From: Candidatus Omnitrophota bacterium
GTDB lineage: Bacteria > Omnitrophota > Gorgyraeia > Zapsychrales > Zapsychraceae
DNA: 64,000 nt
Assembly (NCBI GenBank): GCA_015233195.1
Contig: JADFYE010000008.1
Location: 11,470 to 75,469 of the forward strand
Reading direction: 5' to 3'
A program made the translations under genes and the position numbers. The notes under the pieces are model-generated. The model was not told the origin of the DNA. It ran no database searches and saw nothing but the letters and a program-made list of their open reading frames with translations. This document shows, piece after piece, positions 5,779-61,000 of the stretch (within the stretch, counting starts at the first letter, position 1; every line of letters starts with the position of its first letter).

Positions 5779-5800
5779 ATCAAATCTCCTTTTATAAAAA

Positions 5801-5862
5801 AAACCAGAACCAACCCCGGGGGTTGGTTCTACAGAACCAACCCCCGGGGTTGGTTCTGGTTT
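5801..5862. repeat. two tandem ~25-nt palindromes with CCCCGGGGG core (agaaccaaccccgggggttggttct x2) nested in aaacc/ggttt
   Basis: Read directly: units at 5806-5830 and 5833-5857. On the minus strand a T-run follows, immediately upstream of the pgi RBS. Confidence 0.9.
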
Positions 5863-5941
5863 AAACACGTATTAGTTAAACAAAAATAACGTCGAAAAGC
5901 AATATAAATATGCTATTTGATATGGAGAGAAGAACAGAGAC

Positions 5942-6587: not shown

Positions 6588-9500
6588 CTATTCCAATCCC
6601 AACATAGGTAACGGACTCGGGATTGAAATAATCCGCAGAATAATTCCCTCAACACCAAGAAGATTTCCTTTTTGAAATTCAGCTACCATGGCAGGGTTGA
6701 ACCTGAAAGGTTCATCCTGAGCGAGTCCATCCGGACGAGTCGAAGGACTACCATTTTTAATAACATCCAACCCCATTTTATTACCGTTTAATTCAATACC
6801 ACCGTTTACAATGGCTTTATCAGCTTCGTCTACCCGCTCAAAAAAGAAATTACTATCTGTTTCTGCACCAAAAAAAGTAAACCTTCCAGCTGCAGTAACA
6901 GGACGCCTAATCACTATTTCTATTCCCTTGCCTGATTCTGATAAAACGTCAAACAACCCGTGCTCATAAGAAACGTCATTTACTGTACGTTCATCAGAAG
7001 TTACCTCAAAACCAATAAATCTATTTTCATCTGTGGGGTCATATAACCTTTTTATAGTTATAAAAAAAGATTTGCCCTCATAAGGAGTATCAAAATTAGG
7101 CGTTACCATATATTTCGCTACCTGTTGATTCCCTGAAAATGGAAACCTATGAACTTCTTTAGTTCCATCAACTGTAAAACTATTTTCATCGTCTTGATGA
7201 TTCTCTGCTGACGCCTGCATAGCCAAGTCATTGCCTTTCACAGCAGCCGTATCTACCATAGCTTTATCTACCCGATCAAACACATAACTTACTGACCCTG
7301 TTCCTGAATAAAAGAAAAATGATCCCATAACATTATCAAATTCCGGAACCTCAATGATTATTTTTTCATCACTAGATACTGAAGAAAGTTTTATTTCCTT
7401 TCCCAGAGCAGGACTCTTACTTACTGTCCACTCGTCAGAACACATGACCTCAAACCCCAAAAACTTACCCAGTGAATATTTTTTTTCAAAAGTTACAAAA
7501 AATATTTTTCCAGTACTTGATTTAACTTGATATTTTACTTTCAGCTCATTATTTATAAATAACTGTTTAACAACGCTTCGTTCTGCTCCACTACTAACCG
7601 TAAAATCATGCCTAAACACATTACCGCTTTCTCTTGCCTTTTTAAGCAAATTATTCAATATGTCACTATCCTTAAATAAAGGAACTTCCTGCGTTAAATA
7701 CTGCAGCCGTTCTGCCGCAGCAATAGCTGCTGTTTTCACAGCTTCATTGTTATTTTCTGATGCAAAATTTATAGCTAATTGAATACGTTTCCAGATCCCT
7801 TTCCTGGTTCCAGATATATCATCTTCATTAAACCCTTCCAATCGTATACTCTCTAAAGCTGCAAATTTTGCCCATGGACCATAGTTATCTTGAAGAATAA
7901 TTGCAGCAAATAAAAATGTTCTTTGTTGTTTTTCTATATCAGTTAATCCGCCAAAATCAGCCCAACTTCTAATTGCTAAAGCAATATCTGCATCTGAATT
8001 AGTCTCTGGCTTTGTCAGAACGCCCAATAACCTTACTTTTTCTTTTGCTAAATCTGCTTCTGACACCTGCATCGCAGCGTCTGGAGCGATACGTTCTAAA
8101 TTAAAAGTCATTTCCTTTAATTCTGAATTAAGGGAAGCACCACGGGGATTAGGGACCATATAAAAAATACCCCATAATTTATCACTCGCCATAAAAGAAT
8201 CATAATACACGCTATCAGGTACCATTGCCTGCCCCTCAATAAACGTTGTAACAATGTCTTTTGGAATTTTTACAAGATTATCCCCTTCAACTTTCATAAT
8301 AACTACTGGTTCTGCCGTATTTTTCTTTTGGGTAAATAATATCAGCCCGCGACCAGACGCAATAACATCTCCGCTATCTAAAATTACATTCTCTAAAATT
8401 TGTCCATTAACCAACAAACCCCAGGTGTTATCATGCTTGAAAGACTGAATCTTAATCAACCGGTTGCCCGCAAGTACCAAATTAAAATATTCCATAGCTG
8501 CAGCTGAAGAAACTGGAAAACTAAAGCCTTCCATACGAGGATAAAAACGTTGTTTGCCAGCAGCAAAACCATAAAGAAAGAAATTTTTAACAATTTCAGG
8601 TTTTTTTGAAAAAGCATCTCCCAATAATTTTAAAAAATTTGACGGGGAAAGATCTATTCGCTCCATACCATCACGACTCATATCAATAATATAAAAACAA
8701 GACAAAGCTATCTGATCCGGTTTAACTGGTTTGCGTTCAAAATCAACCGCGTAAACAACTTCACCATGCTTCTTAAAATTTTCGTTAAGATAAAGCGACT
8801 CATGATCAGCAATTACAGTTAAAAGACTCTGCGCATAAATTGATTGTCCTAAAAATTCTTGAGTTAAAAGCAGTACCCACTTAGGATCTATACCTGCAGT
8901 TCCCAATTTAGCCAAAACTGCTTGCGCATCAGCATCTAATTTCAAAGCTTCAACTCTTTTCTGATCATCTGCATCCATTTGTACATTCATCGCAGCGTCG
9001 GTCTTTTTAAAAGTTACTCTATCTTGTGTAACCGTAAGCACCTGCATCGTTCCAAAATTCTTATCATAGTCTATAATATAATCATAAGCGCCAAGAAGTA
9101 CTGGTCGCCTTATTGGAACTACTGATCCTTGAGTTTCATATGTTACCGAAATTACAGCTTTTAAATCATCTCTACGCTCTACATGTAAAAAATAATCCTT
9201 CCCTAAAGGATATTTTTCACCAACTGCAACCGTGAATATTTCTTCTGAACCCGCTAAAATAAACGGTAACGGCAATATTTGTTGTCCGGTTTTTACACTT
9301 CTTTGATAATCCCCATACGAAAATAACTGAGTATCAAATATATGTTCAATCATTTGACCTGTTTCAAACCGGTTATTCCATCTTCCCCAATATGAACTCG
9401 AAGAATACGCGGCATATGGACTGCGATCTACAATCCCACCCTGCCACATCGCATGAAAATCCTCTCTGGAAAATCCTAACGTATACAAATCTTTTGTTGG

Positions 9501-12383
9501 TGATACTTGAAACTTATCCGCTACTGTAGGAGTATCTATCAACCTACGTCTTAATTCATCAGGAATTCTTTTAATAAAACGTTCATCATCTTTCCAATAT
9601 TTAAAAACCCGTACATTTAATGCAACAGCAACCCACATAGAATCAAGTATCCACTGAATCGTTTCATCCTTCATCTGCCCCATATTCCGGTTAGCACGAG
9701 CATCCTTAAATAATTGCCGCGCATTTTCCGCTTCTAAAACCCCGTCAATATATGCTCGAGCTATCCATAAATCATCTTTATGCAAAAGATTATCTTGTAC
9801 TGCCCATCCCAAAACCTCATTAACCCTTTGTGCAACTTTATCACTCCATTTTTCCATCTTCCATGCCGCCCAAAAAGGCACAATGTCAGGATTCGGAGCT
9901 AAATATTTATTTTTACTATCAGCAAACGGATCATGTTTAAACACCTCTACGTCGCGGGTAAGATTTAAAATTCTTTCATATGAAAGCGAAAGAAAATTAG
10001 GACCTTCTCTATGATAAGCACCAACAATATCATCAATATTAGCTTTTAATTTTTCCATTAATTCATCAGTCAACCAGTATTTTTTTTGTAGAATAAAGAA
10101 TTGAAAACCATCTACCATCATAGCCGCGTCATCAATCCCAACATCAATTGTTGTAGGAGTGCTCTGAATTAAAAGATTAAATCTTCCATCTTGAGTTCTA
10201 TTCATCGCATCTAACACGGCAAGAGAAACCGCGTTTGACAAACTATCATTTTTAAGCCATTTCTCTATAGAAAGGCTTGCTCCGTTGTACGATACCCTGA
10301 GTGTTTGTTGAGCCTGTTGTTGATCTAAAACTTTAAAAGCTGAATAAAGTCCCATATAATCAAGATCTAACCCCACGCTTATGACATCTGACTGCGGAGT
10401 ATTTTTCGTTGTTGTAGCACTAACATTTTCTTCCCATTTTTGTAAACTTCTAAACCATTCATTAACTACGCCACCTCGGGATTGGTCTTTATCAATGTTA
10501 CCCTGATCGTCGATCACAACCTTTAACCAGTTGTCACTTTGCATGATATAACCGCGTTCCGATCCTGCTGGAAATTTTACAACTGTATAAATAAGCGTTT
10601 TTGGATCTTTAAAATGTTTAATCTCATTCATCATATACTGATGCAACATTAACACGAAACGATCTTCTCCAGTTTGCAACACTATTTTGCTTGGAATTAT
10701 TTTTCTTCCATGAGTGATAGTATATTCCACTTGTGATACTGCAGTTGCATTCATTGCAAAGTCAGCTTTGGTTGCGTCAGTAGATAAAATTATTTGATAT
10801 GCCCAATAATTAACATTGCGAGACCTAACAACACTACGATCCCTAGCCAGTTCACCTTTAACAAATTCTGGATGATTATCCTTAAAATCTTTAATAAAAG
10901 CCATACCATCCTCGTATGCAGCATCAGCAGGTAAAGCATATCTAATTCTGATATTACTTACAGCTACCGGGGTTTGTGAGTTTTCTAATAAATATTTAGC
11001 ATCTGAATTATGCGGAATAAGTGCAAATTTATCATTTGGCCAAGTTATTGTAAATACCGCAACACTACTGTCAGAAAAAGTAATGTTTATTTTTGTTGGC
11101 GTTTTCATATCATGCTTAAGAGAACTATATAAATTTGAAGCCATCAAATCAGCAAATATTTGCGAAAAACTTAACTTAGGCGTTACCTTCTCCGACATCA
11201 TCGCAGCGTCGGGATTTGCCTTAACCATATTTACAGTAGCCATAGCCATGTCACCGTCTTTAAAAACATTATCACCAGGCGCCCGCTCATGAGCAATTTG
11301 CATTGCTTTATCAATACCAAAACCATCCACAATTCCACCTGAAAAATATTTGCGGCTTATAACTTTCTGGTCTACAGGGTCATATTCTTCTTTAATATAA
11401 TCGTACGCGCCTTTTTTGAAGGATTCTAAATATTGGGCGTAAATTTTTTCTTTAACCGCAGGATCAGATGATAAAACACCACTGGTTTTATCTTTATTTG
11501 AATAAACCTGATTTAATAACGCGTTCTTTAATGATTGCTTATACCAAGTAGCTAATATCATTGAATAAAACATCTGACGAAGCTGAGCAAAATGAGCGCC
11601 TTCGTTAACTTCTTTTTCAATGGCTGGGATGATGATCTCTTTTAAAATTTTTGTATTATCCCCCCCTACCCTACCCTTCCCCACCCCCGTAATTTGGTCA
11701 GGGGGAAGGTGTTTTTGCGCCCAATCAGATGCTTGACAGTCATTCTCTGTTAAAACCTTCAAATGTGCTCCGACCACATACGCTGTATTATTTCTTTCTA
11801 AAACCTTTGCCTTATCTGCTACAATCCAAACTTTGTTAAACGTATCTGTTGGGATTTCAGACGTGCCAAATTTGGCTTTAACTTCAGAATAAACTTTATC
11901 CCAAAACTTCTGTCCGATTTCTTTTTCAGGATAAATAAGTGAAGCAGTTAATTGTTTCAAAATATAATCCTGCGCTAACATGTCTCGACCTAATTCAGTC
12001 TTGCTTAACACGTCAGGAATAATGCGATCTTTTTCAGTTGGAGATAAGTTGACCCAAAGATCATTTTCTTTAATAGTAAGAGAAGCTAAAAAATATTTAA
12101 TAAGTTTTTGTGATTCGTTTTTGAATTCCGGAGCATCAATTTTGAGTCCGGACTTGCCTGTATCCAAAATAAAATCAAAAAGCAAAGGATTATCAGGATG
12201 AACTTGCAAACCTTTCATCATGACCGGAATATAAGCAGACGTAGGTAAAACCATTGTACCGGGAACTGGTAAATTAAGCCCATTCGACAAGCTCAGGGCA
12301 GGCTGCGCATAACCTGTGCCGGTAAAAAAGTTGGTAAATAAAAAAGCTGTTAATATAATTAAACTGACCACGCGTCGAAACAT
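6588..12383 (-). CDS. giant modular secreted protein A (1931 aa): signal peptide + conserved N-cap + DxAM-delimited modules + GGIELN C-cap
   Basis: ATG at 12383 with a GGAG RBS. Signal peptide ends GYA/QP. N-cap (aa ~36-350) is alignable to B and C; C-terminal 70 aa are alignable to D, B and C. Confidence 0.9.
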   Translation of the reverse strand: MFRRVVSLIILTAFLFTNFFTGTGYAQPALSLSNGLNLPVPGTMVLPTSAYIPVMMKGLQVHPDNPLLFDFILDTGKSGLKIDAPEFKNESQKLIKYFLASLTIKENDLWVNLSPTEKDRIIPDVLSKTELGRDMLAQDYILKQLTASLIYPEKEIGQKFWDKVYSEVKAKFGTSEIPTDTFNKVWIVADKAKVLERNNTAYVVGAHLKVLTENDCQASDWAQKHLPPDQITGVGKGRVGGDNTKILKEIIIPAIEKEVNEGAHFAQLRQMFYSMILATWYKQSLKNALLNQVYSNKDKTSGVLSSDPAVKEKIYAQYLESFKKGAYDYIKEEYDPVDQKVISRKYFSGGIVDGFGIDKAMQIAHERAPGDNVFKDGDMAMATVNMVKANPDAAMMSEKVTPKLSFSQIFADLMASNLYSSLKHDMKTPTKINITFSDSSVAVFTITWPNDKFALIPHNSDAKYLLENSQTPVAVSNIRIRYALPADAAYEDGMAFIKDFKDNHPEFVKGELARDRSVVRSRNVNYWAYQIILSTDATKADFAMNATAVSQVEYTITHGRKIIPSKIVLQTGEDRFVLMLHQYMMNEIKHFKDPKTLIYTVVKFPAGSERGYIMQSDNWLKVVIDDQGNIDKDQSRGGVVNEWFRSLQKWEENVSATTTKNTPQSDVISVGLDLDYMGLYSAFKVLDQQQAQQTLRVSYNGASLSIEKWLKNDSLSNAVSLAVLDAMNRTQDGRFNLLIQSTPTTIDVGIDDAAMMVDGFQFFILQKKYWLTDELMEKLKANIDDIVGAYHREGPNFLSLSYERILNLTRDVEVFKHDPFADSKNKYLAPNPDIVPFWAAWKMEKWSDKVAQRVNEVLGWAVQDNLLHKDDLWIARAYIDGVLEAENARQLFKDARANRNMGQMKDETIQWILDSMWVAVALNVRVFKYWKDDERFIKRIPDELRRRLIDTPTVADKFQVSPTKDLYTLGFSREDFHAMWQGGIVDRSPYAAYSSSSYWGRWNNRFETGQMIEHIFDTQLFSYGDYQRSVKTGQQILPLPFILAGSEEIFTVAVGEKYPLGKDYFLHVERRDDLKAVISVTYETQGSVVPIRRPVLLGAYDYIIDYDKNFGTMQVLTVTQDRVTFKKTDAAMNVQMDADDQKRVEALKLDADAQAVLAKLGTAGIDPKWVLLLTQEFLGQSIYAQSLLTVIADHESLYLNENFKKHGEVVYAVDFERKPVKPDQIALSCFYIIDMSRDGMERIDLSPSNFLKLLGDAFSKKPEIVKNFFLYGFAAGKQRFYPRMEGFSFPVSSAAAMEYFNLVLAGNRLIKIQSFKHDNTWGLLVNGQILENVILDSGDVIASGRGLILFTQKKNTAEPVVIMKVEGDNLVKIPKDIVTTFIEGQAMVPDSVYYDSFMASDKLWGIFYMVPNPRGASLNSELKEMTFNLERIAPDAAMQVSEADLAKEKVRLLGVLTKPETNSDADIALAIRSWADFGGLTDIEKQQRTFLFAAIILQDNYGPWAKFAALESIRLEGFNEDDISGTRKGIWKRIQLAINFASENNNEAVKTAAIAAAERLQYLTQEVPLFKDSDILNNLLKKARESGNVFRHDFTVSSGAERSVVKQLFINNELKVKYQVKSSTGKIFFVTFEKKYSLGKFLGFEVMCSDEWTVSKSPALGKEIKLSSVSSDEKIIIEVPEFDNVMGSFFFYSGTGSVSYVFDRVDKAMVDTAAVKGNDLAMQASAENHQDDENSFTVDGTKEVHRFPFSGNQQVAKYMVTPNFDTPYEGKSFFITIKRLYDPTDENRFIGFEVTSDERTVNDVSYEHGLFDVLSESGKGIEIVIRRPVTAAGRFTFFGAETDSNFFFERVDEADKAIVNGGIELNGNKMGLDVIKNGSPSTRPDGLAQDEPFRFNPAMVAEFQKGNLLGVEGIILRIISIPSPLPMLGLE

Positions 12384-39023: not shown

Positions 39024-39683
39024 TCACCTGCTGGTTACTACCCCCTTACGAGGGCACATTGAATTAAGTACACATTGAGAACATCGAGGAGAAACCGGTC
39101 GGCAAATATTTTGACCCCAGACGACCAGAAGTGAATTATATGCTATCCAATAGCGTTTAGGCAATGTTTTTCTCAAAATATTTTCAGTCTCGTCAGGGCT
39201 TGACGTTGTAACATACCCAAACCTATTAGAAATACGGTGAACATGAGTATCCACGCAGATACCCGGCTTGCCAAATCCTTCAGTCAAGACCAGATTAGCG
39301 GTTTTCCTGCCTACACCTTTAAATGTCAATAACGTATCTAGATCATCCGGCACTTGACCATTAAATTCTTTTATAAGACGCTGACACAATTCAAGAATAG
39401 TCTTAGCTTTAGTATGATAAAACCCGACCGGATAAATCGCTTTTTCAATTTGTTTGGCGGTTAACTTTATCATAGCTTGCGGAGTATGCGCTAATTTAAA
39501 CAACCGTTCAGACACTGGAATAGTAGTCTCGTCTTTAGTGCGCAAACTCAACAGACAGGATATCCACACTAAAAATGGGTCGTGCCACTTTTTACCGACC
39601 ATAGTAACTGAGGGATCCGGTAGATTTTTTTCAGCTTGACGGAGTTTTTTAATGACTTGGGAAATGTTGTGATTGTTGACCAT
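39024..39683 (-). CDS. nth: endonuclease III
   Basis: HhH-GPD LLTFKGVGRKTANLVL, catalytic-region D, and a C-terminal 4Fe-4S Cx6Cx2Cx5C cluster (CRPVSPRCSQCVLNSMC). Confidence 0.9.
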   Translation of the reverse strand: MVNNHNISQVIKKLRQAEKNLPDPSVTMVGKKWHDPFLVWISCLLSLRTKDETTIPVSERLFKLAHTPQAMIKLTAKQIEKAIYPVGFYHTKAKTILELCQRLIKEFNGQVPDDLDTLLTFKGVGRKTANLVLTEGFGKPGICVDTHVHRISNRFGYVTTSSPDETENILRKTLPKRYWIAYNSLLVVWGQNICRPVSPRCSQCVLNSMCPRKGVVTSR

Positions 39684-42600
39684 TTAAATTTATCGGTGTT
39701 ATCGAGCTTATAACCGGTATAAAACCTAAAACATTTTCAGTTTCATAATTTTGACTAGTTGCTGATCCATCAAATAACATAGCACTATCGCCTTGCTCTG
39801 TAACTGAATATTTTTCCGGATTAAGATCAATACCACCGACTTGGTCAGAAACATTAATGGCACGGTCGCCATGCTTTTTTATCCATTCCTTCCATTCACT
39901 CTGCGTCATGGATGCTTCAATCGAAAGCCCCCTATTATCTGCTGTAACTTTAACACGCTGAAGCGAATATCCTGCTTGTTGTAAACTTCGTATAAAAGGA
40001 GTATCAGTCATTGCTGCAGCAACTTGACGCATAACCGAGCTATAAGCAGCTCCGGTTTTTTGTTTAAGATTTTCCATAATAGTGTAATGTACTCTTTTTG
40101 CCTCCCATACATTCGTAACCTTAGGAAATTTTTTAAGCAAAAAACTTTTTAACGCCAAATAAAATTTTATTTTCGTGGGTTTATTTGTAACATCCTCGAT
40201 TTTTATATCTATAGGCTGACCTGCGCTTTTTAATATCCTCCGGAAAACCTGCGTCAATAATCCATTCCTCCTAAGATCATAAGACACGCCCGTTTTCACA
40301 TCTTTTAATTCAAATGATAAAAATTTTAATTTATAAGATAACTTAACCTTATTACCCACAAATGTGCCTTCAATTTCTGCAGGATACTTGGATGCTAATA
40401 GTTGTCCATTTACAGTCATGTGCAACCCAAAATATTCTTCTGTACCATTACCTGCTATCCGCCATTCAAATACTTCCGGAATATATTTAGGATCGAATTT
40501 AAAAATATTACGTCTAGATAATTCAATTGTTCCATCTCCAATCGACAAGGAGACCTTTTCACCATCAACACTTGTGAGTGAAATTAAAGATTTAGCCTTA
40601 CGCGGAATTAAAACTTTTCCCTTATCGGGATCATACAACAAATCATATCTTTCCATCCCCATATAATAACGCAGAGGATACATAGGTCGATTATCGATAA
40701 AAATTGGGTCATTCAAAATCGATATCCTGCCCTGACCACCTTTAACTTGGGCGCTTACCAATGCAACTGGATCATCCTTAAAATTTTGTTTTACTTTTTT
40801 TACCACTGCCAAATTTTTAGGAGAAAGTACCGCTCCTGCCTGCATAGCCTTGTCACTAATGCTCGCAACTATTCCGAAATTACCATTTCCCCCTCGCTCA
40901 CTAAATGAAAACTTATCATATCCAGCACTTGAAAATACTTTAACAAATGGAGTATCCATTAAAGACTTTTCCATATCACTCAAAAAATCAGTATATGAAC
41001 CCCTTAACAACTTTTTGTACTCTCCCATATTTCCTTGAAACTTATTCGGCATATCAGGGAATACGTGTTTCCATTTTTTATATGCCTGATCTACTGCTTC
41101 TCTCGTCTGCTTATTATCAACTTGATCCACATAAAAAATCACAGGGAATGGAAACCCCTCTAAAAACATCCTCATAATAACCTGCAACAACCCCATACCG
41201 CTTAAATCTTGTTTTAAAATCGAACTGGTGCGGATCATATTAAAATACGCGTAAGGCAGATGAATAATAGCCCTGCCTTGTTCGTCAACATCCCATCTGC
41301 TCATCTGCATAAACATATTTAAATGTCCACCCTCTAACGTATATGCTTCTTCCTCCGCAATATGAAATCCGAAACCAATATTGAGTTTTTTAGTATTCAT
41401 ACTAATATTCAAACTCAAAGGACGGGGATCCCATTTTTGTTCAAAATTCAACACATTGTTTTTATCAATTACTATTTCTCGTCCATTAATTGATAACATC
41501 AAACCATCAGCCGACACAGGCGATACAAAAATTTTGTCATTTTTAAACGGCTGCAAAGATTCATCCAGCAATTCCCCTCTGTTTACATCAAAATAAAAAC
41601 TTTTTACTGATTTATTATCATCTAAACGTAACCTAAGATACGCTTTACCATTAACCATTTTCGGTTCTTTAGTAAACCAAACTCTTAATCCATCCCCTAA
41701 ATCCAAAGTTACACCAAGCACTATTCCTTGCATGCGCGCGATATTCTGATAAATCAATTCCGTAAATTTTTGTTTGGTTAATTTTTGCGATGCATTACCA
41801 GTCATGGCATAATCAATTTCTTGGTACACCCGTGGAGCAATTATCTTCTCCCATTGTGCAGGTGAAAATTCAGCAAACGCGTGTAAAGAATTTGAATTAG
41901 ATTCATCAAAATTAATATCCAGCCCTAACTCATGCAATGTCCTCCCTATAGGAGACCCCTTTAATCCTATATACATATAAGACATAAAATCTTTGTATTG
42001 TTCTGGCTGTTGTGGATCGAACCTATTCTTAATCACATTTAAAGAATCAGGAAAACTCAAAGGCATTTTCTCTCTATACTTACTCGTACGTTTTAAAAAA
42101 CTATATTGTTTGTCTAAAATTTGTTTAGTTCCATCATCACTTCGAACCTCTTCAAAAATAAATCCAAACCTGTCCGGCATAGCCGCAACAATATAACCAA
42201 GAACATTCGACATTACCCCTAAATTACTCAATGGTTTTTTCGTACCATTTTCTTCAACACTACTAAATTTTACATTTTTCAAAACCACATAATACCTGCC
42301 GTTTTTTAACTCAATGCCTCCGATTTTCATAAAAACGCCGTTTGTTGCATCCAACTTCTCATAAGCTTTCCCGTCAAATTCCAATTCAACATCTATAGGA
42401 TGACCATCTCTGATTTTTGTATTTAACACCAATTTTTGTGGCTCTAAACTATCTTCATATTTATGCTCAGGAGCCTCCGAGAGCAATACAGTTTTATAAA
42501 CATCCTCCTCCAAAATTGAAAGCAAAACTCCGTTTTCATGCTGTTCAAGATGAAAAGGTCCGTCTTCAATTGACTCAATACCATCGTTTTTACGGATTTT

Positions 42601-44007
42601 AGCAGTTTTTAAATTTACCAATAAAGTAGTATATTCATAATTCGGACGCATTACTCTGATTTGCGTATATTCTGTTCCTCCGATTATTTTCGGATATTTC
42701 ATCACCCATAAAAAAATATCATCACCTAAATTCAAGCGCGTACCCAATACTTGCCCATTCATATTCCGTGCTGCCCAGTTTAAACGTTGAAGCATCATTT
42801 CTTTTATAGGATCCGTACTATGCCTAACTGGAATCATCTCTAAATCAACCGATACATCTTCAAGCGGTCTGCTCTTAAGCCCCCTATTAATAGTATCGAC
42901 ACCATCTAAATAGTCATTTTCCTCTTGGAGCATCGCCAAATCTACTTGCACCCCGCCTGAAAAATATTTGCGCGGAATTATAGTCTGAGTATTAGGATCA
43001 TATTCTTCCCGAATCGCGTTTACCGACCCTTTTTTAAAAATATCTGAATAATTATTAAATATTCGCCCCTTAAAATCTTTTTCAGGACGGATAAGCCCCT
43101 CAGTTTTTTTCTGATCCGCGTATTGCCGCCCAAGAGCGTTTTTACTAAAATGCCTCTTATACCAGCCAGCTAAAATTAGAGAATGAAATATCTGACGCAA
43201 AGGAGCAAACTCTTTCCCCTCATTGACTTTTTTAGTCAAAATCGGAATGATAATCTGCTTTATAGCTTGTTGCTCACTCCCCCCATCTTTACTTTGTACA
43301 ACCCCGTGATCGCGAAGCGTTTTTACGGGGCTACCACCAGCTAAATATTCCCCCTCAGTCATCACCTTGAATTTTGCTTGGTCAACATAGACGCTATTCC
43401 CTTTAACTACTACGCTGACTTTATCTGGAACGATCCAGACCCGGCTTAAAATCCCCTCACTTACCTCTCTACCTCTTTCCTCTTTACCTCTTATTTCATA
43501 TATTTTAGAATAAATCTCATCCCAAAATGTCCGTCCTGTTTCATTATCTGGATTTAATAAACTTGCAGTGAGTTGTTTTAAAATATAATCCTGTGCCAAC
43601 ATATCCTGTCCCATCAAAGTCCGGTCAAAACCTTCAGGGATAATGCGTTCTTTTTCTTTAGGCGATAAGTTCACCCATAAATCTTTTTCCGGAACAGTCA
43701 ACCCTGCCATAAAATAATTAATTAACTTTTCAGCCTCAACCTTAAATGCCGCATCAGTAAGCTGAACATCGCCCCTATCAACAATAAAATTAAAATGAAA
43801 CGGATTTTGTTTATCAATAGTCATGCCTTGAATTAAAACCGGCATTTGCACATTGGAAACAACAGGCACTGCAGAATTCTGGGGGAGAATTTGACCAAAA
43901 GAAACAACAATAGAATTTTCAATAAAAAAACAAATAATAAAAAAAAGACATAAAATCTTTTTTGATAAAACTATAAAGCTTATATAAGACTTTGTACCTA
44001 TACACAT
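39649..44007 (-). CDS. giant modular secreted protein C (~1452 aa): N-cap + three divergent ~320-aa tandem modules + GGIDLN C-cap
   Basis: N-cap aligns to A and B. The track ATG at 44043 lies inside the era terminator hairpin, so ATG 44007 (MCIGTKSYISFIVLSKKILCLFF...) is the more likely start. The 3' end overlaps nth by 35 nt. Confidence 0.88.
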   Translation of the reverse strand: MCIGTKSYISFIVLSKKILCLFFIICFFIENSIVVSFGQILPQNSAVPVVSNVQMPVLIQGMTIDKQNPFHFNFIVDRGDVQLTDAAFKVEAEKLINYFMAGLTVPEKDLWVNLSPKEKERIIPEGFDRTLMGQDMLAQDYILKQLTASLLNPDNETGRTFWDEIYSKIYEIRGKEERGREVSEGILSRVWIVPDKVSVVVKGNSVYVDQAKFKVMTEGEYLAGGSPVKTLRDHGVVQSKDGGSEQQAIKQIIIPILTKKVNEGKEFAPLRQIFHSLILAGWYKRHFSKNALGRQYADQKKTEGLIRPEKDFKGRIFNNYSDIFKKGSVNAIREEYDPNTQTIIPRKYFSGGVQVDLAMLQEENDYLDGVDTINRGLKSRPLEDVSVDLEMIPVRHSTDPIKEMMLQRLNWAARNMNGQVLGTRLNLGDDIFLWVMKYPKIIGGTEYTQIRVMRPNYEYTTLLVNLKTAKIRKNDGIESIEDGPFHLEQHENGVLLSILEEDVYKTVLLSEAPEHKYEDSLEPQKLVLNTKIRDGHPIDVELEFDGKAYEKLDATNGVFMKIGGIELKNGRYYVVLKNVKFSSVEENGTKKPLSNLGVMSNVLGYIVAAMPDRFGFIFEEVRSDDGTKQILDKQYSFLKRTSKYREKMPLSFPDSLNVIKNRFDPQQPEQYKDFMSYMYIGLKGSPIGRTLHELGLDINFDESNSNSLHAFAEFSPAQWEKIIAPRVYQEIDYAMTGNASQKLTKQKFTELIYQNIARMQGIVLGVTLDLGDGLRVWFTKEPKMVNGKAYLRLRLDDNKSVKSFYFDVNRGELLDESLQPFKNDKIFVSPVSADGLMLSINGREIVIDKNNVLNFEQKWDPRPLSLNISMNTKKLNIGFGFHIAEEEAYTLEGGHLNMFMQMSRWDVDEQGRAIIHLPYAYFNMIRTSSILKQDLSGMGLLQVIMRMFLEGFPFPVIFYVDQVDNKQTREAVDQAYKKWKHVFPDMPNKFQGNMGEYKKLLRGSYTDFLSDMEKSLMDTPFVKVFSSAGYDKFSFSERGGNGNFGIVASISDKAMQAGAVLSPKNLAVVKKVKQNFKDDPVALVSAQVKGGQGRISILNDPIFIDNRPMYPLRYYMGMERYDLLYDPDKGKVLIPRKAKSLISLTSVDGEKVSLSIGDGTIELSRRNIFKFDPKYIPEVFEWRIAGNGTEEYFGLHMTVNGQLLASKYPAEIEGTFVGNKVKLSYKLKFLSFELKDVKTGVSYDLRRNGLLTQVFRRILKSAGQPIDIKIEDVTNKPTKIKFYLALKSFLLKKFPKVTNVWEAKRVHYTIMENLKQKTGAAYSSVMRQVAAAMTDTPFIRSLQQAGYSLQRVKVTADNRGLSIEASMTQSEWKEWIKKHGDRAINVSDQVGGIDLNPEKYSVTEQGDSAMLFDGSATSQNYETENVLGFIPVISSITPINLNGQQSQHFPSH

Positions 44008-44031
44008 AATAAAAGTATATAGTATAAGCAC

Positions 44032-44063
44032 AAAAAAAACCATAAACCACGTTGGGTTTATGG
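44032..44063 (-). terminator. rho-independent terminator of era
   Basis: 9-bp stem ccataaacc (44040-44048) / ggtttatgg (44055-44063) directly after the era stop, followed on the minus strand by T8 (44032-44039). Confidence 0.75.
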
Positions 44064-54726: not shown

Positions 54727-54804
54727 TGGCGGACCCGACGAGATTTGAACTCGCGATCTCAAGCGTGACAAGCTTGCATGTTAACCAGACTACACCACGG
54801 GTCC
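54727..54804 (-). tRNA. tRNA-Asp (anticodon GTC), CCA encoded
   Basis: Reverse complement GGACCCGTGGTGTAGTCTGGTTAACATGCAAGCTTGTCACGCTTGAGATCGCGAGTTCAAATCTCGTCGGGTCCGCCA folds as a cloverleaf; anticodon loop is TTGTCAC. Confidence 0.93.
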
Positions 54805-54829
54805 TATATTTACTTCTAAGGCGATAAAA

Positions 54830-54902
54830 TGGGCGGTGCTGGGCTCGAACCAACGGCCGCCTGAATGTAAGTCAGGAGCTCTACCAACTGAGCTAACCGC
54901 CC
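54830..54902 (-). tRNA. tRNA-Val (anticodon TAC)
   Basis: Reverse complement GGGCGGTTAGCTCAGTTGGTAGAGCTCCTGACTTACATTCAGGCGGCCGTTGGTTCGAGCCCAGCACCGCCCA; anticodon loop is CTTACAT. No encoded CCA. Confidence 0.93.
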
Positions 54903-55013: not shown

Positions 55014-58000
55014 TTAAACTGCTAACTTATGCTCCATGGGCTCAGTTGTGTCCAAACCTAATAATGGTAACGGACTTGCCAGTGGCGTGATTTTAATTAT
55101 AAACGCTTCAACGCCAGTAAAATCGCCTCTCTGGAATTCTGCAACCATTGCTGGATCAAATTGAAATTCAACCCCTTTCCCCTCTACAGCTACATCTAAC
55201 CCCATTTTATTTCCATTAAGATCAATACCACCCGGAGCCTGACGTGCTTCTAACTTTTGTCTTTTTTGTTCAATCATGCGTAACGCACTTTGACGTAATG
55301 CATTGTTAGCAGAAAGCCACCTACGAGCAAATACTTCTTGTACATCTAATTCTGAAGCTTTTCGCGCTTTTCTAACATTTCTGCTCATATCTCTCAAGGC
55401 TTTTAACTCTTGTAGATTTCTCTTTTTATCACCATTGTCCACTGCCATTGCTTGGTCCTTCGCATCTACATATTTAACTGTAAAAACAAAAGCCCCTTCT
55501 TTTTTTGCAAAAACTAATAAATCACGGATTCTATATGATAAATCGTCTGCCGCTTCTCCCTTAGCAAGTTTTTCTTTGGTCAGCCATTTAAGAATATCTT
55601 GCCGCGCCTGCAGTCTTGCGTTTTCCTCTGCCTGGGCGAAAGAACTAACAGTATTTAACTCAATGGTATAAACATTTCCTCTACTTTTCAAAAATTGTTT
55701 AGTCAATTTTGTTGTTTCTTTGAGCCAAACTATTTGCTCCGCAATCATTCGTAAAACCTCTTTATCCAATCCGAAACTCTCGACTTTTTCTTTAAAAATT
55801 TCGACAGAGGTAAGCATATATAATACGGCCCGTAAAAGTTCATATCCACTCCTTGATTCTTCAGGAAGGATTTTACTTATACTGGTTTCCCATTCAAAAA
55901 AATCTGCCTTTGATATAACGCTATAAATATATTTCATATCAACAACTACTGCCATTTTTTCCGCTTCTTTTAAAATGTCAGCTTCAGACATTCCTTGTTT
56001 GCGCAAAGCACTAAAATGGGCTTTATTCTCTTTTATTATGCTCTGCATCCGCTCTTGCCGATCTTCAACTATTGCTTTACCCATATCTAAAATTTTTCTA
56101 AATTCCCAATACCGACTGATCCAGTGTTTCACTTGATCCATTTTCAATATCGTTCTAATTTTTTTATCGCCCATCTTTTGCTCATGAACATACATATTAT
56201 CCGCGAGTATTTGTACAGCAATCTCTAATTCATACAAATCTTCGCAAGAAGAACTTAATAATTGATAAATAGGATACATTATTAAATTATCATTTAAAGT
56301 AATGCCTGAAACTACTTTATAAAAAAATCTTTTTAATCTCGTTTTTATTGCGTCTTCCTCACTATTGATTCTTTTCTGCAATTGCGAACGAACATACTGC
56401 TTTGCCCTCTCACTTAATTGTCCGGAACCATCTTTCAAAAGAAACGACGCTGGTATAGACAACATCGCCGCGTCAACAGTTATGGTTACGCGTCCAGATC
56501 GCGTTTCTCCAGCTTTCAAAAGACGTGAACCGCCGGGCTGTCCCTGCATATTAGGACCATTGGCTGTGGTTGTTACAGATTCATCGCCCATAATACCAAA
56601 ATTTTCTCCACCTTCTTTACTTCCATCCCAAACATGAAATACACCATACCCCTCTTTATTCACAAACATATCTCCAGACATTTCAACTTTAGTGATAACG
56701 CCTCTTTTGTGATCCCGTGTAATAGAGGTAATAACACCTTCTTGGGACTTCACCAAAAATGTGTTATCATAGGTACCGCCTCGCAATATTTGCGGCGTAT
56801 TAAGATTTTTATTCCCTAACGCCAACAAATTTCCCGTAGGAATTAGCTCATCACTAACTTCAAACACTTTTTGAGCTCCACGCACCTGAATATCTGTTTC
56901 TCCTGGTGAAAATATTCTCTTTGGATGGACACCAAAATCAGCGATAACTTCATAACCGCCATCTCGTTCTGCTTCTGCAGACGTTGTCAAATTTTGCGTT
57001 TCAACATCAATGGTCAACTCTTTACCTTTGAAACTATATGTAACCGTGGTTTTAGAATGACCCAGCGCTTCCGCAAGACCTGGATAATCCGTAGTTTCAA
57101 ATGACGCTTGAACAACAATAGCTCCGCCTTGTTCTCGGACTTCAAAATCTTTCCATGTGTCAGCGCCGCGTCCGACTCCGTGCATAAAATTTTTTGTTGG
57201 TCTTCCGTCCAACACAGCCCTTGTGAGTCCCTGAATCTCTTCAGGCTTAAGTTCAAACATTCTTCCGTTGCGAATGACCGTTCCATTCTGGATCCGGTTA
57301 ACAAATGGCATCATAAAAAACAACCCGCTGCCAATTTCATTAGGAGCTTCAGACATGAGCAAGGTTTCCTTGCCGTTGACAATATGGGAGACTACGCGGA
57401 ACCCTTTAGTAGCGATGACCGTTATGCTTGTTTCAGGTTTTTGCGGCTCACCTTTTTCCGTGAATTTTAAAAATACTTGTCCCTGCTTTACAGACATTTC
57501 AGCTTTATACTTACTATTTGTGCCGTTGATACCTTTAATGGCGTTTTCAAACAAAGCAGACTTTGAGTCAGACGCCGCGTTCATTGCCGCGTCGCCTATC
57601 ACTTTCCATTTATCAGGATTCGCATCCAGAAAATCAAAAAGCTCTTTCCAATTAATATGCATTATGTGCCGCGCACTGCCAAATCCATTATTAATTAAAA
57701 AAGCTGCAGAACGCACGTTGAAAAGATCACTTATTCTGCGCATAGGCAAAGCATCAATCTTTTGTTTTAAAATTTCCCACGGAACTTTTTTCATTTGGTT
57801 GCCATCAAACCTTATTACTACAAAAGGCTCCTCCTTATTTTCCATTTGACTACAAATAAGAAAACCATTGCCATATGACACAAAATCATTTGGACCCAAA
57901 TTAACGTTTATAGATTTGCCATTAATTATCAAATCCCACTTGTATTTTCCTTCTTCTCTTGATCTAAGCTTAATTGTTATCACCTTATCTTTGTTAAAAA

Positions 58001-61000
58001 CCACCTGCGTAAAATTTGAAACCGATAGATTAGAAACTTCTACTTGCAACGAAGATCCTTGAATCATATATTGTTCATCGCCTAAGGCAAGACCGGTTCT
58101 AGCTTTCCAATCATTCCTTGGGAAAGTATACATTAAAAGCTGAATAAAACCAGAAGCTGATACCCTTAATTTAAACCGCACTTCTTTCTTTTTTACAGGA
58201 TCTTGATATGAACCGATTAAATCTATTTTGTCTTGAAGGACAGCATTAGCCGTCCAATCTTTTTCTAAAATAACCTGCCCAAATTTTGCAAGTAATTTAG
58301 GAATATTGTCATATTCTGCAATTGTCACAGATAAAAATTTATCCGCAGTCAAAGTCTTGCCTAAAAATTCTCGGGTCATACCCATAACATCCATACGACT
58401 TAATATCATTTGCTGCGTTAAAAATACTACCGCGTCTTGTGCAGATTTATCCAAACCCAACGTCTTGATTAATGCTGCCTCACTAGGCGTAAAAAACATT
58501 GCCTCATCTGTACCGCTTAGGTCTTCATTTAATTTTTCAATATCAGCTTTAACTCCGTCCATGTCTACACTTTTATTCATATATGGATCATTCCATCCAT
58601 TTATTTCTGCTGATGCAATAACCTTAGAACCAAAATTAATCACCACAGTCTTAATGGTTCTGCCCTCTCCCTCACTTCTTTGTATTCCATCTACTTTATA
58701 ACTAAAAAGTTTTCGGTTACCATAAACAATATCAAAACTCGCAATAGTAAAAAGAGCTGGTCGCGTTGCTGTTGGCTGTACTATTTCCGATACTATTGTT
58801 AATTTATCCGCAAGGTCTTCTTTGCCAATAATTTTAAATAATTGTTGGCACAAAGCTAATCCGTCTTCAGAACTCATAAACACATTATCACTTAAAACTT
58901 TTTCCAACCCAGCCGCAAATGAATCTACAGAATCCGCTAGCTGTAATTGGAAAAGAAACCAAGTTCGTATAAATTCATTCGCGTTTTCTATACCCTTTAT
59001 TTCTTTTTTCTGATTTTGCTTATTCTGCAATCTGATTGCGACAACAACCGCTGCTTTAAAAAATTCTTTGTTACTTAAATACGAGGAAACATTCTTAAAT
59101 TCTGCTAGCTGTGCCTGAGGCTTAAAACTTAAAAACTCTTTGCACCATGCAATATTCTCAGGAGTTGCTGCTTTTAATTCATTACCTAATAACTCAAAAA
59201 ACTTTTTTACATTACCTGTCCATGAAAACTGATCCGGATTATATAACACTTGAGATTCTAATAAGAACCTACGCATAGCATCTCTATCTTCATCGGTGCG
59301 CTGACTCCTTAATTGTTTAGCGAGTGAACCTGCTAGCTGCGGTCTAGGCGCTCGAAACCTAATCATCATCGCCATATCGCGTTCGCGTATTCCCATTTTT
59401 GTGTTTTTGTCTACAGAACAATTACACTTTGCCGCAAGCGCAAATTTAACCATTTCTTTTAGTGTTATTCTAAGTAGTTTTGCTTGTTTACCAAACATCT
59501 TCCAATCCGCTTTAACACGAACGTGTTCCGATATTCCCCCAAAAGCATCAACCGTAAATTCCCCATTTTTGTCGTCTGCTATCCAAACCTCTTGCACCAC
59601 AGGAAAAGCTTTAACATCGTACCCTATAATAGTCTTAACTTCAGGGGCAATCTTTCCACCTAGAGATTTGACAATACTAGCTTTTTTAATAACTTGATCT
59701 AATAATTTCTGTATTGTTGCTTTTTGTGCTCGTGGTTGCGCCTTCTTTTGAATATATTCCGCGACTGCAATGTTTAAATGATCATTTGCTACATCAACTG
59801 CCTCCCTTAATACGGTCGGAGTTGAAACCATAGCGCGATCCCGAGAAGAGATTCCTTTTATTTTCTCATTGCTCACAGAAAAACCGTAGAGAGCGACAAT
59901 CAATTTAACAAATTCCATTTTAGATAAACTCATATGTTTTAGGACATCTTCCACCTCATGTACGTAAGTAAATAATCCATGCGCGCTTATAGTAAAATTT
60001 TGCCCTTCAGGATTAACTCTGATAAAATTTCGAGGATCCTTCCAGGAAACTTTAACGTCATAAGCTTCTTTAAGAGGCATTATTACTGGGTAGCCCATTA
60101 TTTCTTTAATTTTTGTATCAACCTCGCCCCCTAATGATTCAAGCATCCGTGCATATTTTAAAAATTTAGGCGCCCAAAATTCTACTTGTGGTCGAGTAAC
60201 AATAGGCAAAGCACGTTCCGCATCATACTGCTTAACAAACACTTGCAAGACTGCGTTGACCGCATCCTTTGCTGTTCCTCGTACAATTTTTTTACCCTTG
60301 GCTTTTGTTGCCATTGCTGCATCAACTGGCACGCCTAAATACGCAGCTACTTTTTGCTTTAGCTTTCTAATCGCTATTTCCGCAGTTTCTCTAATAGCTT
60401 CGTTTTTAGGGTCTCCCAAAATTTTTTCATTTAATGCCGTAAATATTTTGAATAAAACCTTTGATAAATCTTCATCAGTTTTTACCAAACTTGTATCAAC
60501 TTTCATCTGCCCAAAATAATAAGTTTTTACCTCTTTTACATGTTCATCTGTTCCCCATATTACGTTTTCTCTTTCTTGGGCATTCGGATTATCTGTCAAT
60601 TGCAGGCTATATTCTAAGTGTGCTAGATTAACAATTAACATTTCATTCAATTTTCTCAATAATGATCCCACAGATACTGACTCAATAAAAACCGTACCTT
60701 CTTGTTCAGACATAATGAAAAAATTTTGTCCTGGCACCTTACGCCTCAAATCCCAAATAAACTCAGCTTTTGTCCTATTAATACCCGTAAAATGATCCCC
60801 CGCATTTGTTTCCGAAAACAGAACATCTTCTCTCGGTATTGTAGCGCTAGGGTCTATATATCTTATCTTAACTGCTGGCGATTCTTCTCCTGCTATGTTA
60901 ATCGCGCGCGCTGTTGCTCTTTCAAAAACCTGGTCAAAAGAAACAACCCTTTCTCGTAATGGATAATTTTCATCTACGCCCAACATCGCCTTATCTAACT

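What the first reader, a model, noticed from the sequence alone, without database searches (positions are those of the whole stretch)
55017..55238. C-cap comes in two subtypes (A/D versus B/C) and is not a recognised sorting signal
A and D share GGI[ED]LNGNKMGLDV...F[RQ]F[ND]PAMVAEFQ[KR]G[ND]..GVE..I[LI].I.....SPLP.LGL. B and C share GGIDLNP....[LV].[TE]...G......[MF].........GF[VI]PVI.S[VI].P[LI]. So there is one domain family with two flavours in the same genome neighbourhood, possibly two recognition classes.

The cap lacks a terminal aromatic residue (OMP beta-signal). It has no C-terminal TM plus basic tail (as in sortase / exosortase / GlyGly-CTERM types). It has no GGxGxD nonapeptide repeats (T1SS RTX). 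In C its last 11 codons overlap the nth start, and D has an extra 13-aa tail, so the extreme C-terminus itself is not conserved.

The conserved GGIDLN lies directly after the last seam, and an internal D[AP][AV]M sits inside the cap. This hints that the cap is itself built from seam-like elements.
Basis: partly seen in the sequence, partly recalled or inferred. Interest (0 to 1): 0.6.

Follow-up and report, generated by a model that had tools for sequence, protein, structure and literature searches.

The report
C-terminal cap of Omnitrophota modular polyproteins
The 74-residue tail is the C-terminal half of an undescribed pair of end-caps that bracket strings of ordinary enzymes in signal-peptide-bearing proteins of Omnitrophota nanobacteria; together with a four-residue junction motif (DxAM) it suggests where these multi-enzyme proteins might be cut.

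Summary
The cap is real. A profile built without any window sequence finds exactly four caps in the window, each at the end of one of the four big minus-strand ORFs. It belongs to a large Omnitrophota-only family (3,940 representative proteins at E<=1e-3) and matches nothing in Pfam, NCBIfam, PADLOC, PHROGs or PDB.

It is not free-standing. It is almost always paired with a ~300-aa N-terminal domain that follows a Sec-type signal peptide. Between the caps lie 0 to about 14 modules split by a DxAM motif (410 observed, 18 expected). Cargo includes hexokinase, PGI, PGM, dehydrogenases, kinases and methyltransferases.

The two-subtype claim is half right. A and D cluster (62% identity). B belongs to a second large type with a 2-residue deletion. 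B and C are only 34% alike, and the supposed B/C mark (VPV) is the family majority. Cap type follows N-cap lineage (99/102), so the types are whole-scaffold lineages.

On its own the cap is modelled as mostly coil (pTM 0.22). Next to the N-cap, in a cargo-less relative, it gains strands (pTM 0.70).

Best reading: one half of a two-part carrier. Docking and cleavage at the seams are inferred, not shown.

The parts
55017..55238 (-). C-cap of protein D (the finding): APGGIDLN...LLGL plus an 11-residue tail. GG starts at 55232.
   Evidence: Translation. Non-window cap HMM gives E 8e-27.
55014..63992 (-). ORF D. It is 5'-truncated by the window end and equals residues 381-3372 of MBF0483915.1 (P0036, 3372 aa), whose N-cap lies outside the window.
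55146..55157 (-). Internal DPAM inside the D cap. It starts the only helix predicted in the isolated cap.
55446..55457 (-). Last DxAM seam of D (DQAM), 75 residues upstream of GGIDLN. The other D seams are at 56463-74, 57582-93, 58497-508, 59367-78, 59829-40, 60312-23, 60984-95, 61368-79, 62691-702, 63219-30, 63411-22, 63603-14 and 63954-65.
   Evidence: Synonymous codons vary, so the constraint is at the protein level.
61380..62693 (-). Hexokinase cargo module of D (aa 434-871). It is bounded by seams DKAM (431-434) and DIAM (872-875).
   Evidence: Pfam Hexokinase_1/2 at aa 446-861. Best PDB hit is human HK2, E 2.6e-49.
56475..57584 (-). Aldose 1-epimerase cargo module of D (aa 2137-2506), between two DAAM seams.
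   Evidence: Pfam Aldose_epim at aa 2192-2504. Seams.
6588..12383 (-). ORF A (1931 aa, = MBF0483879.1): signal peptide, N-cap, modules split by 9 D.AM matches (4 of them DAAM), C-cap.
6591..6803 (-). C-cap of A (T1-VEG type, with a 10-residue insertion).
11304..12383 (-). Signal peptide plus N-cap of A, ending RKYFSGG then GIDKAM.
   Evidence: E 7.8e-173.
30048..34472 (-). ORF B (1474 aa): signal peptide, N-cap, cargo, T2-type C-cap.
30051..30221 (-). C-cap of B (T2 type: 2-residue deletion, LQNASGFVPVII). It is 50% identical to the cap of the cargo-less member P0178.
39649..44043 (-). ORF C (1464 aa): signal peptide, N-cap, three paralogous cargo modules split by DxAM, divergent C-cap.
39652..39837 (-). 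C-cap of C (divergent). Its last 11 codons and stop overlap the nth ORF (39024-39683).
   Evidence: E 7e-6.

Best explanation
The stretch is the C-terminal cap of an undescribed protein family restricted to Omnitrophota.

SHOWN
- Members have a Sec-type signal peptide (conserved A-x-A|Q) and a ~300-aa, mostly helical N-cap ending RKYFSGG.
- After the N-cap come 0 to about 14 cargo modules, each the size of a complete protein and often a complete cytoplasmic-type enzyme. A four-residue DxAM seam separates the modules.
- The protein ends in the 57-75-aa C-cap: GGIDLN, DPAM helix, G-x-x-P/G-V-I-I, LLGL, and sometimes a tail.
- The C-cap is nearly always paired with the N-cap. The cap pair is inherited as a unit, while the cargo between the caps is completely different from member to member.
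- A natural member (P0178, 438 aa) has no cargo at all.

INFERRED
- The C-cap is not an autonomous sorting domain. It is one half of a two-part carrier.
- After Sec export, the C-cap folds onto the N-cap, or the two bind a common partner, to form the unit that holds or targets the cargo loop.
- The DxAM seams are recognition or cleavage sites at which modules are released.
- Many cargo types use ATP, NAD or SAM, and the producers are thought to be host-dependent episymbionts. The likely purpose is therefore to export enzyme and effector arrays out of the producer's cytoplasm, possibly towards a host cell.
For: Family and position:
- 3,940 representative proteins at E<=1e-3 and 944 at E<=1e-10. 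In all 150 listed hits the cap sits at the extreme C-terminus.

Pairing of the two caps:
- 70 of 94 hits longer than 400 aa have the N-cap. The rest lack any signal peptide and look 5'-truncated.
- Of 21 assessable metagenome ORFs fished with the C-cap pattern alone, 20 carry the N-cap.
- Of 41 genome ORFs fished by the N-cap that end inside the fetched locus, 34 end in the C-cap.
- N-cap neighbours predict C-cap type in 99 of 102 proteins, and identities correlate at rho 0.71.
- A cargo-less member exists, P0178.

Seams:
- D.AM occurs 410 times in cargo against 17.8 expected.
- In the window there are 29 matches in capped ORFs against 0 in 11,322 aa of the other ORFs.
- Codons at the seams are synonymous-variable.
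- Seams flank the hexokinase module tightly. The aldose-epimerase domain ends 2 residues before its downstream seam.

Folding:
- The D cap modelled alone gives pLDDT 68.7 and pTM 0.22, with one helix and the rest coil.
- The homologous cap of P0178, modelled with its N-cap, gives two strands, pLDDT 62-85 and pTM 0.70.

Taxonomy and cargo:
- At least 595 loci were found. All 80 listed are from Omnitrophota MAGs or from MAGs labelled Planctomycetales, with several copies per genome.
- Cargo census.
Against: - No coordinates or PAE were available, so N-cap/C-cap contact is not demonstrated. The two AF2 runs used different cap sequences (D versus P0178) and both are of moderate confidence.
- Co-variation of the caps can be explained by shared descent alone.
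- No protease, cleavage product or proteomic evidence was examined. DxAM could be a structural hinge or docking motif rather than a cut site.
- Export of ATP- or NAD-dependent enzymes is puzzling. The N-terminal segment was judged a signal peptide only by inspection and hydropathy.
- 7 of 41 N-cap ORFs end without a C-cap. Some may be genuine rather than frameshifted.
Confidence: 0.45

Rival explanations
1. The C-cap is an independent C-terminal signal for a second export step, working like T9SS CTD cargo. After Sec export, an unknown outer-membrane or surface machinery recognises the cap, and the cap types are recognition classes.
For: - Extreme C-terminal position in all 150 listed hits.
- Size of 57-75 aa, combined with an N-terminal signal peptide.
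- Conserved hydrophobic end motif LLGL, with an optional conserved tail.
- The isolated cap is modelled as mostly unstructured, as expected for a peptide that needs a partner.
Against: - No match to any described sorting domain.
- The cap is almost never seen without the N-cap.
- Cap type simply follows N-cap lineage.
- No secretion genes neighbour the four genes in the window.
- The extreme C-terminus is variable.
Confidence: 0.25
2. The N-cap plus C-cap is an envelope or periplasmic protein in its own right, like the cargo-less P0178. Cargo is inserted into its permissive linker and stays attached, giving uncleaved multi-enzyme arrays tethered to the scaffold. DxAM is then a linker or helix-capping motif, not a cut site.
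For: - A cargo-less member exists.
- Both boundaries keep invariant GG (RKYFSGG and GGIDLN) across a low-complexity linker.
- In the cap, DPAM starts a helix.
- Preprints describe Omnitrophota multi-enzyme giant proteins without showing any cleavage.
Against: - A 23-fold enriched, four-residue motif with an invariant Met at every module boundary is more specific than linkers usually are.
- Modules start at the Met like native N-termini.
- P0178 was the only cargo-less member among the proteins examined.
Confidence: 0.2
3. The cap is a fragment of, or mimics, an ASKHA/RNase-H-like beta-beta-beta-alpha unit (GIDL... as in the GIDLGGT phosphate-1 motif). It acts as a decoy or complementing element.
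For: The cap profile aligns without gaps over 56 residues to the N-terminus of TsaD. This was the top PDB hit, found for three distinct sequences at E 0.21-0.23.
Against: - The E-value is not significant.
- The predicted helix at DPAM does not match the TsaD strand and loop at that position.
- No Pfam ASKHA family matched.
Confidence: 0.04

Closest known systems
Omnitrophota giant multi-enzyme proteins (West-Roberts et al. 2023 preprint, 10.1101/2023.11.21.568195; Nielsen & Lui 2026 preprint, 10.64898/2026.06.07.730766)
   Same: - Same phylum.
- Signal peptide or membrane association.
- The polypeptide is tiled with cytoplasmic-type enzymes: hexokinase, phosphoglucomutase, response regulators, GNAT, HAD, methyltransferases, HATPase.
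- Both preprints raise the open question of whether these proteins are cleaved.
   Different: - Those studies treat much larger proteins (30-85 kAA giants in the first, >=10 kAA in the second) and describe Pfam content only.
- They report no conserved N-cap, C-cap or DxAM seam, and one says that cleavage points are unknown.
- The family here is 0.4-4 kAA.
- Whether the >=10-kAA giants carry the same caps and seams was not tested.
T9SS cargo C-terminal domain (CTD; Por_Secre_tail, TIGR04183)
   Same: A small domain at the extreme C-terminus of proteins that also have an N-terminal Sec signal peptide, attached to highly diverse passengers.
   Different: - No sequence match.
- The cap is modelled as helix plus extended segments, not an Ig-like beta-sandwich.
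- Found in Omnitrophota, not Bacteroidota.
- Paired with a conserved N-terminal domain.
MARTX toxins
   Same: Conserved N-terminal and C-terminal regions bracket a variable array of effector modules. In MARTX these are released by processing at inter-module sites (established knowledge).
   Different: - MARTX toxins use T1SS and have glycine-rich repeat regions and an internal cysteine protease domain (Peptidase_C80).
- None of these was found here.
- Here there is a Sec signal and a DxAM motif.
TpsA/CdiA and other polymorphic toxins
   Same: A Sec signal plus a conserved ~250-300-aa N-terminal domain, followed by variable cargo set off by a short conserved junction motif (VENN in CdiA; established knowledge). 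Some cargo here is toxin-like: Zeta toxin, kinases, GNAT.
   Different: - The N-cap is modelled as mainly helical, not a TPS beta-helix.
- Many modules per protein.
- A conserved C-terminal cap follows the cargo.
- Much of the cargo is central-metabolism enzymes.
Viral polyproteins cut at short A-x-A-like sites (for example birnavirus VP4, a Ser/Lys protease)
   Same: Complete proteins are concatenated and separated by a short motif with Ala at the presumed P1 position (recalled from memory, not tested).
   Different: - No protease was identified here.
- This is a cellular gene family with a signal peptide.
- Cleavage has not been demonstrated.

Membership tests
T9SS C-terminal domain (TIGR04183 / Pfam Por_Secre_tail) | Profile match to the CTD model | tested here: not met
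   Eight diverse caps scanned against NCBIfam and Pfam at E<=10 gave no CTD hit.
T9SS C-terminal domain | Autonomous Ig-like beta-sandwich fold of about 70-100 aa | tested here: not met
   AF2 of the cap alone gave one helix with the rest coil, pTM 0.22. In context it gave two short strands plus helices. Both models are of moderate confidence.
PEP-CTERM / LPXTG / GlyGly-CTERM type sorting signals | Short signature motif, then a hydrophobic TM helix, then a basic tail at the C-terminus | tested here: not met
   No such signature. Maximum KD(19) is 1.05-1.67, interrupted by Pro, Asp or Lys. Only 0-1 K/R in the last 10 residues. No NCBIfam hit.
Outer-membrane protein beta-signal | C-terminal aromatic residue (usually Phe) ending a beta-strand | tested here: not met
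   The proteins end in ..LGLE..AFLE..FPSH and ..KLAV.
T1SS RTX substrates / MARTX | GGxGxD nonapeptide repeats (HemolysinCabind). For MARTX, also a C80 cysteine protease domain. | tested here: not met
   No such Pfam or NCBIfam families in A-D. The proteins carry N-terminal Sec-type signal peptides instead.
Autotransporter (T5aSS) | C-terminal beta-barrel of about 250-300 aa | tested here: not met
   The conserved C-terminal element is only 57-75 aa, and no Autotransporter Pfam hit was found.
Omnitrophota N-cap/C-cap modular protein family (defined here) | C-cap profile match at the extreme C-terminus | tested here: met
   All four window proteins match: E 7e-6 to 8e-27 with a profile that excludes window sequences.
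Omnitrophota N-cap/C-cap modular protein family (defined here) | Signal peptide plus N-cap ending RKYFSGG at the N-terminus of the same protein | tested here: met
   A, B and C match inside the window at E 1e-159 to 1e-173. D matches through its full-length database record P0036, which is identical over 2992 aa.
Omnitrophota N-cap/C-cap modular protein family (defined here) | Cargo modules delimited by DxAM | tested here: met
   D.AM matches per protein: A 9, B 1, C 4, D 15, counting one inside the cap of C and one inside the cap of D. That is 29 observed against 1.0 expected.
ASKHA / RNase-H-like fold | Significant profile or structural match to the beta-beta-beta-alpha-beta core | tested here: inconclusive

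The most novel reading that the evidence does not exclude
The N-cap and C-cap pair, together with the DxAM code, constitutes a delivery system specific to this phylum. A two-part carrier takes arrays of complete, cytoplasmic-type enzymes and effectors (hexokinase, PGI, PGM, dehydrogenases, kinases, Zeta toxin) out of an episymbiotic nanobacterium through Sec. It then releases them at DxAM, plausibly into or onto a host cell. DxAM would be the first cleavage grammar for the enigmatic multi-enzyme and giant proteins of Omnitrophota.
Probability: 0.3. Interest if true: 0.85.

Novelty: new variant of a known kind. Interest (0 to 1): 0.68.

Why it matters
Omnitrophota are ultra-small bacteria thought to depend on hosts, and their genomes devote unusual space to huge multi-enzyme proteins of unknown purpose. 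Two preprints ask whether these proteins are cleaved. One states that the lack of known cleavage points blocks structural analysis.

This family supplies concrete, testable handles:
- a conserved pair of end-caps, which make a searchable family signature;
- a highly specific four-residue junction, DxAM, that splits the proteins into units the size of whole proteins.

In this window the four capped genes occupy 37% of the DNA, so they are a major investment for the cell.

If the caps form a carrier and the seams are cut, this would be a new way for a bacterium to export batteries of metabolic enzymes. It would also give a practical rule for dissecting Omnitrophota polyproteins by computer and by proteomics.

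Tried and rejected
- **Seam as a DNA-level site** (recombination site or internal start). Rejected. Asp and Ala codons vary synonymously (GAT/GAC, all four GCN), and no Shine-Dalgarno-like sequence appears in the 30 nt printed upstream of each seam.
- **C-terminal TM anchor.** Rejected on hydropathy and the lack of a basic tail.
- **First structure alignment (A5).** N-cap hits with cargo tails were misaligned onto the cap, so it was discarded. A6, built from full-length members that all carry caps, aligned correctly.
- **Chimeric rows with cargo deleted.** Prepared but not needed.
- **PDB sequence and profile searches.** Only the hexokinase module of D hit. A gave nothing, the N+C profile gave nothing, and the cap profile gave TsaD at E 0.2, which is not significant.
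- **PADLOC and PHROGs.** Nothing relevant.
- **Exact-protein contig look-up for A.** Not on record. The source was identified through cluster members instead.
- **Literature.** Motif strings and searches on Omnitrophota, polyprotein and fusion found no description of the caps or seams.
- **Metagenome scan with alignment A8.** It was repeated with A3.
- **Neighbouring unknown ORFs.** Scanned for a partner protease or secretion component, with nothing found.
Full report
**1. What is at the coordinates**

Window 55017-55238 (minus strand) encodes the last 74 residues of a very long ORF, D (55014-63992). D runs off the right end of the window. Three other large minus-strand ORFs end in alignable tails: A (6588-12383, 1931 aa), B (30048-34472, 1474 aa) and C (39649-44043, 1464 aa). 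From the invariant GG, these tails are 57-72 residues long.

A cap HMM built only from non-window relatives was run on the six-frame translation of the window. It hit exactly these four C-termini and nothing else, at E 8e-27 (D), 3.5e-17 (B), 6e-16 (A) and 7e-6 (C) for a nominal database of 1e6 sequences.

**2. Source**

- A is identical to MBF0483879.1.
- D is identical to residues 381-3372 of MBF0483915.1.
- Both are 'hypothetical protein' entries from one Candidatus Omnitrophica MAG contig of 86 kb, locus tags HQL25_.
- The neighbouring genes are ordinary housekeeping genes: MnmG, MnmE, PurH, Era, nth, TatC, PGI, an ABC sugar transporter and an M48 peptidase. No secretion system lies nearby.

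**3. The cap belongs to a large, unannotated family**

- A profile of 12 caps searched against 1.84 billion representative proteins gave 3,940 hits at E<=1e-3 and 944 at E<=1e-10. In all 150 listed hits the match is at the extreme C-terminus, in proteins up to 3,948 aa.
- Caps scanned at E<=10 match nothing in Pfam or NCBIfam.
- Whole proteins match nothing relevant in PADLOC or PHROGs.
- The PDB profile search gives only TsaD at a non-significant E of 0.2.
- I found no paper describing the motif or the domain.

**4. The cap is one half of a pair**

A, B and C start with a Sec-type signal peptide: a basic n-region, a 15-19-residue h-region and a conserved A-x-A|Q. A ~300-aa conserved domain follows, ending RKYFSGG. 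I call it the N-cap. D's N-cap lies just beyond the window.

Evidence for the pairing:
- Of the C-cap hits longer than 400 aa, 70 of 94 carry the N-cap at their N-terminus. The rest have no signal peptide and look 5'-truncated, as window D is.
- Metagenome contigs were fished with a C-cap peptide pattern alone. Of 21 ORFs with assessable upstream sequence, 20 have the N-cap. One of these (L098) is interrupted by a stop and a frameshift. The exception (L091) is an orphan remnant lying next to another family gene.
- In the other direction, species-representative genomes were fished with N-cap patterns. Of 41 ORFs that end inside the fetched locus, 34 end in the C-cap.
- That scan found at least 595 loci. 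All 80 listed come from Omnitrophota MAGs, or from MAGs labelled Planctomycetales, with several copies per genome.
- One natural member, P0178 (438 aa), has the N-cap joined to the C-cap by a 15-residue low-complexity linker with no cargo.

**5. What lies between the caps**

The interior is cut into units by a four-residue motif, D-x-A-M.

- In family cargo regions it occurs 410 times against 17.8 expected. The variants D.AQ and N.AM are enriched only 3-4-fold. At x, the beta-branched residues V, I and T are disfavoured.
- In the window there are 29 D.AM matches in the four capped ORFs (1.0 expected) and none in 11,322 residues of the other ORFs.
- Codons for D and A vary synonymously, so the constraint acts on the protein, not the DNA.
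- No conservation extends beyond the motif, apart from small residues after the Met.
- Median spacing between motifs is 151 residues.
- In D, the hexokinase domains (aa 446-861) sit exactly between DKAM 431-434 and DIAM 872-875. The aldose-epimerase domain (aa 2192-2504) ends two residues before DAAM 2507.

Cargo across relatives includes PGI (E 5.6e-199), phosphoglucomutase, Glu and Ala dehydrogenases, GHMP and protein kinases, response regulators, HATPase, GNAT, methyltransferases, HAD, a sugar transferase and Zeta toxin. Most modules have no Pfam match.

Modules are shared and duplicated. C's three modules are paralogues of one another, and one A module is homologous to a D module.

**6. 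The 'two subtypes'**

In 208 aligned caps the invariant positions are GG, one Gly and one Ile. The consensus is GGIDLNAKNMGLDVAKDGKGVEMKFDPAMVAEFQRGDFTGVVPVILRITPIQSPLPLLGLE.

Two major types exist:
- **T1** keeps G-D/N-F and has either V-E-G (A and D) or V-V-P.
- **T2** lacks two residues there and reads LQNAxGFVPVII (B, P0178 and about 40 others).

A and D are 62% identical. B and C are only 34% identical, no more than B-D or C-A. C is an outlier.

Cap type tracks the N-cap. Nearest N-cap neighbours predict the C-cap type in 99 of 102 proteins, and identities correlate at rho 0.71. The A and D N-caps are 86% identical. The flavours are therefore lineages of the whole scaffold, not separate C-terminal recognition classes.

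The sampling is biased, because the profile was seeded from T1 and the P0178 search from T2. The proportions should not be read as frequencies.

**7. Structure**

- AF2 on P0178, with a 49-sequence alignment of full-length members, gave pLDDT 73.8 and pTM 0.70.
  - The N-cap is mainly long helices with a beta-hairpin.
  - The cap region has pLDDT 62-85, with strands at GG-IDL and eight residues downstream (aa 378-383) and a helix at DP...
  - The very conserved RKYFSGG and the linker are below pLDDT 50.
- So the cap is not modelled as an autonomous domain, and it gains structure next to the N-cap.
- This is suggestive of docking but not proof. I had no coordinates or PAE, and the two runs used different cap sequences.

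**8. Interpretation**

Shown: an obligate N-cap/C-cap pair frames variable, DxAM-delimited, whole-protein-sized modules in signal-peptide-bearing proteins of one phylum.

Inferred: the two caps act together as a carrier, and DxAM is a recognition or cleavage site.

Points in favour of this reading:
- the specificity of the motif;
- the invariant Met, followed by residues typical of a native N-terminus;
- the exact bracketing of complete enzymes.

Many cargo types use ATP, NAD or SAM. A destination with such cofactors, such as a host cell, is therefore attractive for these putatively episymbiotic bacteria (lifestyle from PMC10066038). Nothing here demonstrates that.

Rival readings are an independent second-step secretion signal, or an uncleaved display scaffold. 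These cannot be excluded.

**9. Relation to the literature**

Two preprints describe Omnitrophota giant proteins tiled with similar enzyme families. They note signal peptides, TM helices and C39/S8 peptidase domains, and they ask whether the proteins are cleaved. One states that the absence of known cleavage points prevented subdivision. Neither mentions the N-cap, the C-cap or DxAM.

The family here is smaller (0.4-4 kAA). I could not test whether the >=10-kAA giants share the caps and seams.

The invariant GG at both cap boundaries is reminiscent of double-glycine (C39) processing sites. That is only a lead.

**10. Verdict**

- 'Not a known sorting signal' is supported.
- 'Two recognition classes' is not supported.
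- The real finding is larger than the cap. It is an undescribed, abundant, phylum-specific architecture, and its junction motif makes the cleavage question testable.

Noticed in passing
window 61380-62693 (-): The hexokinase module of D is of the eukaryote-like Hexokinase_1/2 type. Its best solved relatives are human HK2 and HK1 (E 2.6e-49), not bacterial ROK glucokinases.
   Followed up: partly
window 39649-44043 (-), protein C aa 371-746, 747-1066, 1067-1421: The three cargo modules of C are paralogues of one another (about 21% identity, E 1e-10) and are separated by DxAM seams. They have no Pfam or PDB match.
   Followed up: partly
window A aa 1132-1437 (about 8073-8990) and D aa 1832-2136 of the window ORF: One A module is homologous to one D module (25% identity over 250 aa, E 1e-18), so modules are shared between polyproteins of one genome.
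   Followed up: no
window 6588-12383, 30048-34472, 39649-44043, 55014-63992: The four capped ORFs take up 37% of the 64-kb window, a very large share of coding capacity for one paralogous family.
   Followed up: partly
window 4504-5868 (-): A stand-alone phosphoglucose isomerase gene lies immediately downstream of A, while relatives of A-D carry a full PGI (E 5.6e-199) as an internal cargo module. Free and encapsulated copies of the same enzyme type may coexist.
   Followed up: no
window 54727-54902 (-): tRNA-Asp(GTC) and tRNA-Val(TAC) genes lie just downstream of the D stop codon, on the same strand.
   Followed up: no
window 39649-39683: The last 11 codons and stop of C overlap the start of the nth (HhH-GPD) ORF by 35 nt. 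The overlap depends on the ATG chosen as the nth start.
   Followed up: partly
P0178 aa 342-363; N-cap end in all members: The most conserved N-cap motif (EEYDP..Q..IPRKYFSGG) is modelled as disordered (pLDDT below 50). This is the behaviour expected of a binding or processing motif rather than a structural core. Both cap boundaries carry an invariant GG.
   Followed up: no
P0009 aa 538-585; L098 6043-10216; L091 9890-13668: Signs of turnover in relatives. P0009 has a degenerate internal C-cap after a seam. L098 is a family gene broken by a stop and a frameshift. L091 is an orphan 109-aa C-cap ORF directly followed by another complete family gene.
   Followed up: partly
caps of relatives (P0001, P0003, P0007 and others); D 55017-55049: Many T1 caps carry a conserved extra tail after LLGL (E-x-S/N-P-x-E-x-x-LAKG). 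D's tail TTEPMEHKLAV looks like a variant of it, and other members stop exactly at LGL.
   Followed up: no
loci L011, L021, L023 and others; P0185, P0249: Several public records that carry the family are labelled 'uncultured Planctomycetales', Pacearchaeota or Heimdallarchaeota. Given the otherwise Omnitrophota-only distribution, these are probably mislabelled or misbinned contigs.
   Followed up: no
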